A stretch of 64,000 nt of DNA from Escherichia coli (GTDB lineage: Bacteria > Pseudomonadota > Gammaproteobacteria > Enterobacterales > Enterobacteriaceae), in the NCBI RefSeq assembly GCF_024502345.1, contig NZ_JALDNN010000001.1. One strand, 5' to 3'. The stretch's first letter is position 1, and each line of letters opens with the position of its first letter. Made by a program: the position numbers and the translations under genes. Positions 3,193-3,860 of this stretch are shown in pieces. The notes under the pieces are model-generated. The model searched no databases and was not told where the DNA came from. It worked only from the letters and a program-made list of their open reading frames with translations.

Positions 3193-3860
3193 ATGTTTTT
3201 AGCATCATTGTTGAGACGTATTGCATTTAGTTACTACGATTATAAAGCTTATAATTTCAATATTGAAAAAACAGACTTTGTTGTCATCCATATTCCCGAT
3301 CAGATTGGCGATGCTATGGCCATCTTTCCTGTTATTCGGGCGCTTGAATTGCATAAAGTTAAGCATCTTTTAATTGTAACGTCGACAATTAATTTAGAAG
3401 TCTTTAATGCGCTTAAACTTGAACAGACTAAATTAACATTAGTCACAATGACTATGCAGGATCACGCAACATTAAAAGAAATAAAAGATTTAGCAAAGAA
3501 CATAACACAGCAATACGGTACGCCGGATCTTTGCATTGAGGGGATGCGTAAAAAGAACCTGAAAACGATGTTATTTATCAGTCAGTTGAAAGCAAAAACG
3601 AATTTTCAGGTTGTTGGTATAACCATGAATTGCTTCTCCCCTTTGTGCAAGAACGCGTCCCGTATGGATCAGAAACTCCGGGCTCCCGTACCTATGACAT
3701 GGGCATTTATGATGCGTGAGGCGGGTTTTCCAGCAGTCAGGCCAATATATGAATTGCCACTAAGTGAGGATGTACTCGATGAGGTGCGCGAGGAAATGCG
3801 ATCGTTAGGATCTTACATTGCGTTCAATTTAGAAGGTAGCTCGCAGGAACGTACATTTTC
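3193..3860 (+). pseudogene. yeeL: Glycosyltransferase-like fragment (yeeL-like), 3' end replaced by IS1
   Basis: The ORF runs straight into the IS1 left inverted repeat at 3861 and terminates a few codons inside the element. Its position between shiA and yeeJ matches the K-12 yeeL pseudogene; the family assignment is from memory. Confidence 0.5.

What the first reader, a model, noticed from the sequence alone, without database searches (positions are those of the whole stretch)
3193..3860. yeeL-like transferase ORF fused to and terminated by IS1
The 229-aa ORF reads through the IS1 left end and stops six codons inside it. Together with the missing target-site duplication this suggests IS1-mediated deletion of the gene's 3' portion and of the original yeeL-yeeJ junction.
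Basis: inference. Interest (0 to 1): 0.25.

Follow-up and report, generated by a model that had tools for sequence, protein, structure and literature searches.

The report
IS1 deletion truncating yeeL and yeeJ
A copy of the mobile element IS1 sits where 799 bases of an E. coli chromosome are missing, cutting off the ends of two facing genes (yeeL and yeeJ) and leaving a meaningless 229-codon hybrid reading frame; this is ordinary gene decay caused by a mobile element.

Summary
ORF 3193-3882 (229 aa) is yeeL codons 1-223 fused to six codons (VMLPTY) and a TGA from the left inverted repeat of an intact 768-bp IS1 (3861-4628). The IS1 flanks (tacattttc / atgccccat) are not a target-site duplication.

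Alignment with K-12 MG1655 and seven other E. coli genomes shows that the IS1 replaces 799 bp (K-12 2051862-2052660):
- the last 385 bp of yeeL (codons 224-350 plus the stop);
- the 261-bp yeeL-yeeJ intergenic region;
- the last 153 bp of yeeJ (50 codons plus the stop).

Three qualifications apply:
- **yeeJ is truncated too.** It also carries an IS3-family insertion and a frameshift.
- **yeeL may already have been dead.** K-12-type alleles have a Q235* stop 11 codons past the junction. Genomes identical to the window on both flanks carry either TAA or CAA there, so the state before the deletion cannot be determined.
- **The route is unresolved.** Adjacent deletion from one IS1 cannot be told apart from recombination between two IS1 copies. 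None of 5,426 complete E. coli genomes has either junction.

The chimera lacks most of the GT9 domain. This is a known kind of event and of low interest.

The parts
2879..3192 (.). shiA-yeeL divergent intergenic region, intact
   Evidence: Colinear with K-12 and with strain 510016. The 982-bp stretch 2879-3860 is 99.8-99.9% identical to them.
3193..3860 (+). 5' remnant of yeeL (GT9 glycosyltransferase gene): codons 1-222 plus 2 nt of codon 223
   Evidence: Aligns to K-12 yeeL (b4497) 2053328-2052661. Its translation matches the reference YeeL except for I56V.
3193..3882 (+). Chimeric 229-aa ORF (yeeL'-IS1 left inverted repeat): 223 yeeL codons, then VMLPTY and TGA
   Evidence: No Pfam GT9 match. 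The exact product is on record in 3-4 public contigs.
3861..4628 (+). IS1, 768 bp. Left inverted repeat 3861-3883, right inverted repeat 4606-4628 (18/23 complementary). insA 3916-4191, insB' frame 4110-4613, A6C frameshift motif at about 4166. No flanking target-site duplication.
   Evidence: It is 99.1-99.5% identical to the annotated IS1A and IS1B copies in L002 and L001. It differs by 1 base from the second IS1 at 48245-49012.
4629..6356 (-). yeeJ 3'-proximal segment, corresponding to K-12 YeeJ residues ~1704-2289. The last 50 codons and the stop are missing. The frame runs on into the IS1 right end and stops at 4548.
6357..7692 (+). IS3-family element (1336 bp) inserted in yeeJ, flanked by the 16-bp direct repeat ctgttttcagtccgac
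7693..13752 (-). Remainder of yeeJ. It has extra Ig-like repeat DNA (9707-10601) relative to K-12 and a 1-bp deletion in a T-run at about 11800 that shifts the frame after codon ~650.

Best explanation
An IS1-associated deletion has removed the convergent 3' ends of yeeL and yeeJ and the spacer between them, 799 bp in all. A single IS1 occupies the gap. The 229-aa ORF is a passive by-product: the yeeL frame runs into the IS1 left inverted repeat and reaches a TGA after six codons. It keeps only the N-terminal part of a GT-B glycosyltransferase and is most likely non-functional.

Most likely route, in two steps, both inferred:
1. One IS1 inserted, with a normal 9-bp duplication, at one of the two present junctions in this AT-rich (about 39-40% GC) region, which is a recurrent IS1 target.
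2. An intramolecular replicative transposition of that IS1 into a nearby site produced an 'adjacent deletion'. The intervening DNA and one copy of the duplication were lost, and the IS1 was left with non-matching flanks.

The structure itself (deletion plus IS1 in its place) is shown, at roughly 0.97 confidence. The specific route is inferred; the confidence value below applies to the route.
For: Shown:
- The IS1 lies exactly between K-12 positions 2052661 and 2051861, with 799 bp absent. The same gap appears against EC21.
- The flanks are not duplicated.
- The IS1 is complete: 768 bp, both inverted repeats, insA and insB'.
- Both immediate flanks belong to the same K-12-like haplotype. The left 982 bp has 1 private SNP. 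The right 524 bp has 1 private and 2 other SNPs. So one local event suffices.
- The left junction is reproduced in an independent assembly.
- Intact YeeL matches Pfam PF01075 at residues 178-321 (32.6 bits against a cut-off of 22), whereas the chimera has no GT9 match.

Supporting context:
- yeeL and its surroundings are an IS1 hot spot. 139-153 of 5,426 genomes carry an IS1 in or next to the gene, at no fewer than five other sites.
- The deleted segment is 39.8% GC against 49.8% for the window.
- Adjacent deletions and recombination between IS copies are the documented common causes of IS copies without target duplications in E. coli (PMC11708052).
- An adjacent deletion needs two events. The two-IS1 route needs three.
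Against: - No genome was found with a simple IS1 insertion (with duplication) at either junction. None of 5,426 complete E. coli genomes has either junction as a contiguous match, and no close relative of this lineage is in that collection (best 99.2% over 9.4 kb). The precursor required by the model is therefore unobserved.
- The final structure is identical to the product of recombination between two direct IS1 copies. Double IS1 occupancy of this locus does occur (strain DXMF6-3R).
- The second IS1 in the window also lacks a duplication, so events that erase duplications are not rare in this genome.
Confidence: 0.55

Rival explanations
1. Two IS1 copies inserted independently in the same orientation, one in yeeL after codon 223 and one 153 bp before the end of yeeJ. 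RecA-dependent recombination between them then deleted the 799 bp and one IS1 copy.
For: - It gives exactly the observed structure: one IS1, non-matching flanks and a precise gap.
- The locus is an IS1 hot spot with many independent same-orientation insertions inside the very segment deleted here, at +122, +136, +227 and +352 bp from the junction. One genome has two IS1 copies at the locus.
- Recombination between IS copies is a documented cause of missing duplications (PMC11708052).
Against: - It needs three events instead of two.
- No genome with an IS1 at either of these two exact sites was found among 5,426.
- In the one genome with two IS1 copies at the locus, the copies are in opposite orientation and neither sits at a junction seen here.
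Confidence: 0.33
2. One-step event: IS1 was captured into a double-strand break or deletion intermediate, so that insertion and deletion happened together without staggered target cleavage. This was proposed for IS5 and IS481 in PMC11708052.
For: No duplication, with the IS exactly at the centre of a deletion. The hypothesis exists in the literature.
Against: The same paper found that all 14 IS-associated deletions in the long-term evolution lines were explained by stepwise adjacent deletion. Nothing here requires a one-step event. No IS1 example is known to me (own knowledge).
Confidence: 0.07
3. There was no deletion. Either this is a simple IS1 insertion whose duplication decayed or the ORF ends naturally here, or the junction is an assembly artefact, or IS1 marks the edge of a horizontally imported segment.
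For: - K-12-type yeeL alleles end only 11 codons further on, at Q235*.
- The best database matches of the two flanks differ. The left flank matches K-12-like genomes at 99.9% and the right flank matches strain Z1322HEC0005 at 99.4%.
Against: - The reference DNA continues for 799 bp between the two flank positions in every genome compared.
- The left junction is identical in an independent assembly.
- SNP mapping places the yeeJ haplotype switch at about 5153, some 520 bp away from IS1. Both immediate flanks are K-12-like.
Confidence: 0.03

Closest known systems
IS1-promoted adjacent deletions (classically described next to IS1 in the E. coli gal region; own knowledge) and IS-associated deletions without target duplication in the E. 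coli long-term evolution experiment (PMC11708052)
   Same: A complete IS remains. Host DNA is missing starting exactly at an IS end. There is no target-site duplication. Neighbouring genes are truncated and fused to IS-end codons.
   Different: Here the precursor insertion has not been observed, so the route (adjacent deletion or IS x IS recombination) is inferred rather than documented through time as in the evolution lines.
yeeL (b4497) pseudogene of E. coli K-12 MG1655
   Same: Same locus, between shiA and yeeJ, and the same 5' haplotype (99.8%). In both cases the product is cut short, at 234 aa in K-12 and 229 aa here, and lacks most of the GT9 domain.
   Different: K-12 is inactivated by a point nonsense mutation (CAA to TAA at codon 235) and all 1,053 bp are retained. 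Here the 3' 385 bp are physically gone and the frame ends inside IS1.
Other IS1 insertions in yeeL in E. coli genomes (for example strains C21-2, EC21, QDFD216 and an Ecol_448-type group)
   Same: IS1 in the same AT-rich gene, in the same orientation, splitting or displacing yeeL.
   Different: The two copies examined at sequence level (EC21 and C21-2) are simple insertions that keep both halves of the locus. EC21 shows an 8-bp overlap consistent with a duplication. None of these copies shares a junction with the window.

Membership tests
IS1 (IS1-family insertion sequence) | Length of about 768 bp with imperfect terminal inverted repeats of about 23 bp, starting GGTGATGCTGCC / GGTAATGACTCC | tested here: met
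   3861-4628 is 768 bp. The left inverted repeat GGTGATGCTGCCAACTTACTGAT and the reverse complement of the right one, GGTAATGACTCCAACTTATTGAT, match at 18 of 23 positions.
IS1 (IS1-family insertion sequence) | insA (91 aa) and an overlapping insB' frame joined by a -1 frameshift at an A6C motif | tested here: met
   ORFs at 3916-4191 (91 aa) and 4110-4613 (167 aa). TTTAAAAAACTC at about 4163-4174. 99.1-99.5% identical to copies annotated 'IS1-like element IS1A/IS1B family transposase, programmed frameshift'.
IS1 (IS1-family insertion sequence) | A target-site duplication of 8-9 bp flanking a simple insertion | tested here: not met
   The flanks are tacattttc and atgccccat. This is explained by the 799-bp loss of host DNA. 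It is a property of the insertion event, not of element identity.
Glycosyltransferase family 9 (heptosyltransferase-like), YeeL | Match to Pfam PF01075 (Glyco_transf_9) above the gathering score | tested here: not met
   The 229-aa chimera has no PF01075 hit at E<=1. The intact 350-aa allele (L011, WP_001459817.1) scores 32.6 bits against a cut-off of 22, over residues 178-321. The window retains only residues 178-223 of that stretch.
Glycosyltransferase family 9 (heptosyltransferase-like), YeeL | Orthology with E. coli yeeL by sequence and by position (between shiA and yeeJ) | tested here: met
   99.8% DNA identity to K-12 b4497 over the retained part, with conserved amn-shiA-yeeL-yeeJ order.
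Glycosyltransferase family 9 (heptosyltransferase-like), YeeL | Membership of a specific LPS heptosyltransferase equivalog (WaaC, WaaF or WaaQ) | tested here: not met
   The intact allele scores 38.5, 18.9 and 16 bits against TIGR02193, TIGR02195 and TIGR02201, whose cut-offs are 185, 135 and 170. It is a distant GT9 member of unknown substrate.
IS-mediated adjacent deletion | Host DNA missing relative to the reference, starting exactly at an IS end, with the IS intact and no duplication | tested here: met
IS-mediated adjacent deletion | A precursor with a simple insertion (with duplication) that shares one of the two junctions | tested here: inconclusive
   No contiguous match to either junction in 5,426 complete E. 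coli genomes. The lineage has no close relative there. Draft assemblies and Shigella genomes could not be searched by DNA.

The most novel reading that the evidence does not exclude
The IS1 did not arrive by ordinary staggered-cut transposition followed by a second event. Instead it was captured in one step into a break while the 799 bp were lost. This would be a natural-isolate IS1 example of the duplication-free 'IS insertion with rearrangement' proposed for IS5 and IS481 (PMC11708052).
Probability: 0.07. Interest if true: 0.3.

Novelty: already known. Interest (0 to 1): 0.07.

Why it matters
It matters little beyond annotation.
- **Annotation.** ORF 3193-3882 should be labelled as a truncated yeeL pseudogene fused to IS1, not as a protein-coding gene. 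yeeJ should be labelled as a pseudogene with three lesions.
- **Context.** The locus illustrates that the AT-rich yeeL-yeeJ convergent region is a recurrent landing site for IS1 in E. coli. It also shows that IS copies without target duplications mark small deletions.
- **Phenotype.** No consequence can be inferred. YeeL has no known function and is already inactivated by a nonsense mutation in K-12 and many other strains.

Tried and rejected
1. **Inferring whether yeeL was already dead before the deletion.** A first small sample suggested that F148 is linked to the Q235* stop. Two 90-nt haplotype searches gave 763 exact TAA matches and 226 exact CAA matches. Strains 2013C-4991 and 14EC007 have an intact 350-aa yeeL, yet they are as close to the window on both flanks as the TAA strain 510016. 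The linkage idea was dropped and the earlier state is undeterminable.
2. **IS1 as a horizontal-transfer or recombination boundary.** The two flanks have different best matches. Per-SNP mapping puts the yeeJ mosaic switch at about 5153, not at IS1. Rejected.
3. **Flank exchange with the second IS1 (48245-49012).** That copy has the same orientation and its own non-matching flanks (tgttttgtc / ttgcgtaag). No cross-match exists between the four flanks. No link was found.
4. **Searching for precursor or sister genomes.** I tried the two IS1 junctions, the IS3-element junction in yeeJ and a 9.4-kb neighbouring stretch. No shared junction was found, and the nearest genome is only 99.2% identical.
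5. **Exact-protein look-up of the ORF on the yeeJ side (630 aa).** Not on record.
6. **Literature on yeeL.** The searches returned only noise or passing gene-list mentions.
7. **Rfam and promoter/terminator scans around the locus.** These found only the two tRNA genes and a promoter-like match inside the IS1 left end. Counts were no higher than in shuffled sequence.

Full report
**What is in the sequence**

The window is an E. coli chromosomal segment colinear with K-12 MG1655 from about 2,056,520 down to about 1,997,955, in reverse orientation. It begins with amn (6-1616, -) and shiA (1562-2878, -).

- ORF 3193-3882 (+, 229 aa) is in the six-frame list.
- Its DNA up to 3860 is yeeL. From 3861 it is the left inverted repeat of IS1 (GGTGATGCTGCCAACTTACTGAT...).
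- The frame reads ...ERTFS|VMLPTY*. The third base of the Ser223 codon, six further codons and the TGA all come from IS1.
- The IS1 runs from 3861 to 4628 (768 bp). It has canonical inverted repeats (18/23 complementary), insA (3916-4191), the insB' frame (4110-4613) and the A6C frameshift motif.
- It is 99.1-99.5% identical to annotated IS1A and IS1B copies. It differs by one base from a second IS1 at 48245-49012.
- The nine bases on either side (tacattttc, atgccccat) do not match.

Against K-12, window 1-3860 aligns to 2056520-2052661 and window 4629-6356 aligns to 2051861-2050134. K-12 2051862-2052660 (799 bp) is absent. With the K-12 annotation, the missing DNA is:
- the last 385 bp of yeeL (b4497, 2052276-2053328), that is codons 224-350 plus the stop;
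- the 261-bp intergenic spacer;
- the last 153 bp of yeeJ (50 codons plus the stop).

The same gap appears against strain EC21 (L001 3238-4036). On the minus strand, the yeeJ frame runs from residue 2289 of the K-12 protein straight into the IS1 right end. So the IS1 did not simply insert; it stands in place of a deletion.

The left junction is not an assembly artefact. A contig of an independent draft assembly, GCA_050022275.1, is 100% identical over 3,937 bp and ends 77 bp into IS1.

**What the gene is and what was lost**

Intact alleles of yeeL encode 350 aa. They are annotated 'glycosyltransferase family 9 protein'.
- The intact protein passes Pfam PF01075 (32.6 bits, cut-off 22) over residues 178-321.
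- It is far below the cut-offs of the LPS heptosyltransferase I, II and III equivalogs. It is a distant GT9 member with no assigned substrate.
- The 229-aa chimera has no GT9 match. It keeps only residues 178-223 of the matched stretch.
- In GT-B enzymes of this family the C-terminal half binds the nucleotide-sugar donor (established knowledge). The chimera is therefore expected to be inactive; this is an inference.

**Was a working gene destroyed?**

This cannot be decided. K-12, EC21 and strain 510016 carry CAA to TAA at codon 235, so their natural ORF ends at 234 aa, eleven codons beyond the IS1 junction. That codon lies in the deleted DNA.

I first thought the window's 5' haplotype was linked to the stop, but this is wrong.
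- Exact 90-nt haplotype searches found 763 genomes with TAA and 226 with CAA.
- Strains 2013C-4991 and 14EC007 have an intact yeeL (WP_001459817.1). They differ from the window at exactly the same positions on both flanks as the TAA strain 510016.

The counts suggest a pre-existing stop is somewhat more likely. However, they are biased by the many laboratory K-12 derivatives among complete genomes.

**Context**

yeeJ is multiply broken here. It has a 1-bp deletion in a T-run near 11800, a 1,336-bp IS3-family insertion at 6357-7692, and the 3' truncation by IS1.

The two IS1 flanks looked phylogenetically different at first: the left was 99.9% identical to K-12-like genomes and the right 99.4% identical to strain Z1322HEC0005. 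Mapping each SNP shows that the first 524 bp to the right of IS1 are also K-12-like. The yeeJ mosaic switch is at about 5153. IS1 is therefore not a recombination boundary.

**Mechanism**

The deleted segment is AT-rich (39.8% GC against 49.8% for the window), and yeeL is a recurrent IS1 target.
- 139-153 of 5,426 complete genomes carry an IS1 in or beside yeeL.
- These lie at no fewer than five other sites: upstream in EC21, and at +122, +136, +227 and +352 bp from the present junction.
- One genome has two IS1 copies at the locus.

The literature gives two common causes for IS copies without duplications, adjacent deletion and recombination between IS copies. It also offers a speculative one-step capture at a break (PMC11708052). 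All three would produce the structure seen here.

No complete E. coli genome shares either junction or the IS3-element junction. The nearest genome is only 99.2% identical over 9.4 kb. No precursor is therefore available.

My estimates are:
- adjacent deletion from a single IS1, which needs the fewest events: about 0.55;
- recombination between two IS1 copies: about 0.33;
- one-step capture at a break: about 0.07.

**Verdict**

This is a routine example of IS-driven gene decay at a known pseudogene locus. It is already known in kind and of low interest.

Noticed in passing
window 6357-7692 (flanks 6341-6356 and 7693-7708); L013 1513-2848; L014 1503-2838: The IS3-family element inside yeeJ has orfA and orfB with HTH_Tnp_1 and rve domains. 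It is flanked by a 16-bp direct repeat (ctgttttcagtccgac) that is single-copy in K-12. Two 100%-identical copies in other E. coli are flanked by 15-bp repeats (gcgttcagtgccacg; gtaattgccagtaac). Target duplications of 15-16 bp are far longer than the 3-5 bp usual for the IS3 family (own knowledge). RefSeq names the element only 'IS3 family transposase'. One literature search found no description.
   Followed up: partly
window 48245-49012 and 49013-50899: A second IS1, in the same orientation and 1 base different, also lacks a target duplication (tgttttgtc / ttgcgtaag). Its left flank maps to K-12 at about 2012563 (the intG/fliE region). Its right flank is about 1.9 kb absent from the K-12 region compared. 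That stretch carries a 402-aa IS605-type TnpB ORF (49648-50856) and replaces K-12 yedL-yedN.
   Followed up: partly
window 20007-21066 and 21550-22609: Two 99.9%-identical copies of an IS of about 1,060 bp lie in inverted orientation about 480 bp apart, in the hprR-hprS region. The element is IS5-family and IS903-like (322-aa DDE_Tnp_1_5/DDE_Tnp_1 transposase). Each copy shows a 9-bp overlap in K-12 coordinates, consistent with its own target duplication.
   Followed up: partly
window ~11800 and 9707-10601: yeeJ has a 1-bp deletion in a T5 run, which shifts the frame after codon ~650. It also has about 0.9 kb of extra Ig-like repeat DNA relative to K-12. Its 3' third switches from a K-12-like haplotype to a Z1322HEC0005-like haplotype at about 5153, so the gene is mosaic.
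   Followed up: partly
yeeL locus across E. coli genomes (L001, L002, L015; hits H31-H45): yeeL and its surroundings are a recurrent IS1 landing site. 139-153 of 5,426 complete genomes have an IS1 within a few hundred bp, at no fewer than five distinct positions. Strain DXMF6-3R has two IS1 copies at the locus plus an IS1203 in yeeJ.
   Followed up: partly
yeeL codon 235 (deleted here; K-12 2052624-2052626): The K-12 yeeL nonsense mutation (CAA to TAA, Q235*) is polymorphic within a single, otherwise identical haplotype. 763 genomes match the 90-nt haplotype exactly with TAA and 226 match it with CAA. The yeeL pseudogene of K-12 is therefore a recent single-base lesion that many close relatives lack.
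   Followed up: yes
window 57834-59846: The flagellin gene fliC encodes an unusually long 670-aa product, with intact N- and C-terminal flagellin domains and a divergent central region (58360-59574 has no K-12 match). This suggests a motile E. coli with a non-K-12 H type rather than a Shigella.
   Followed up: no
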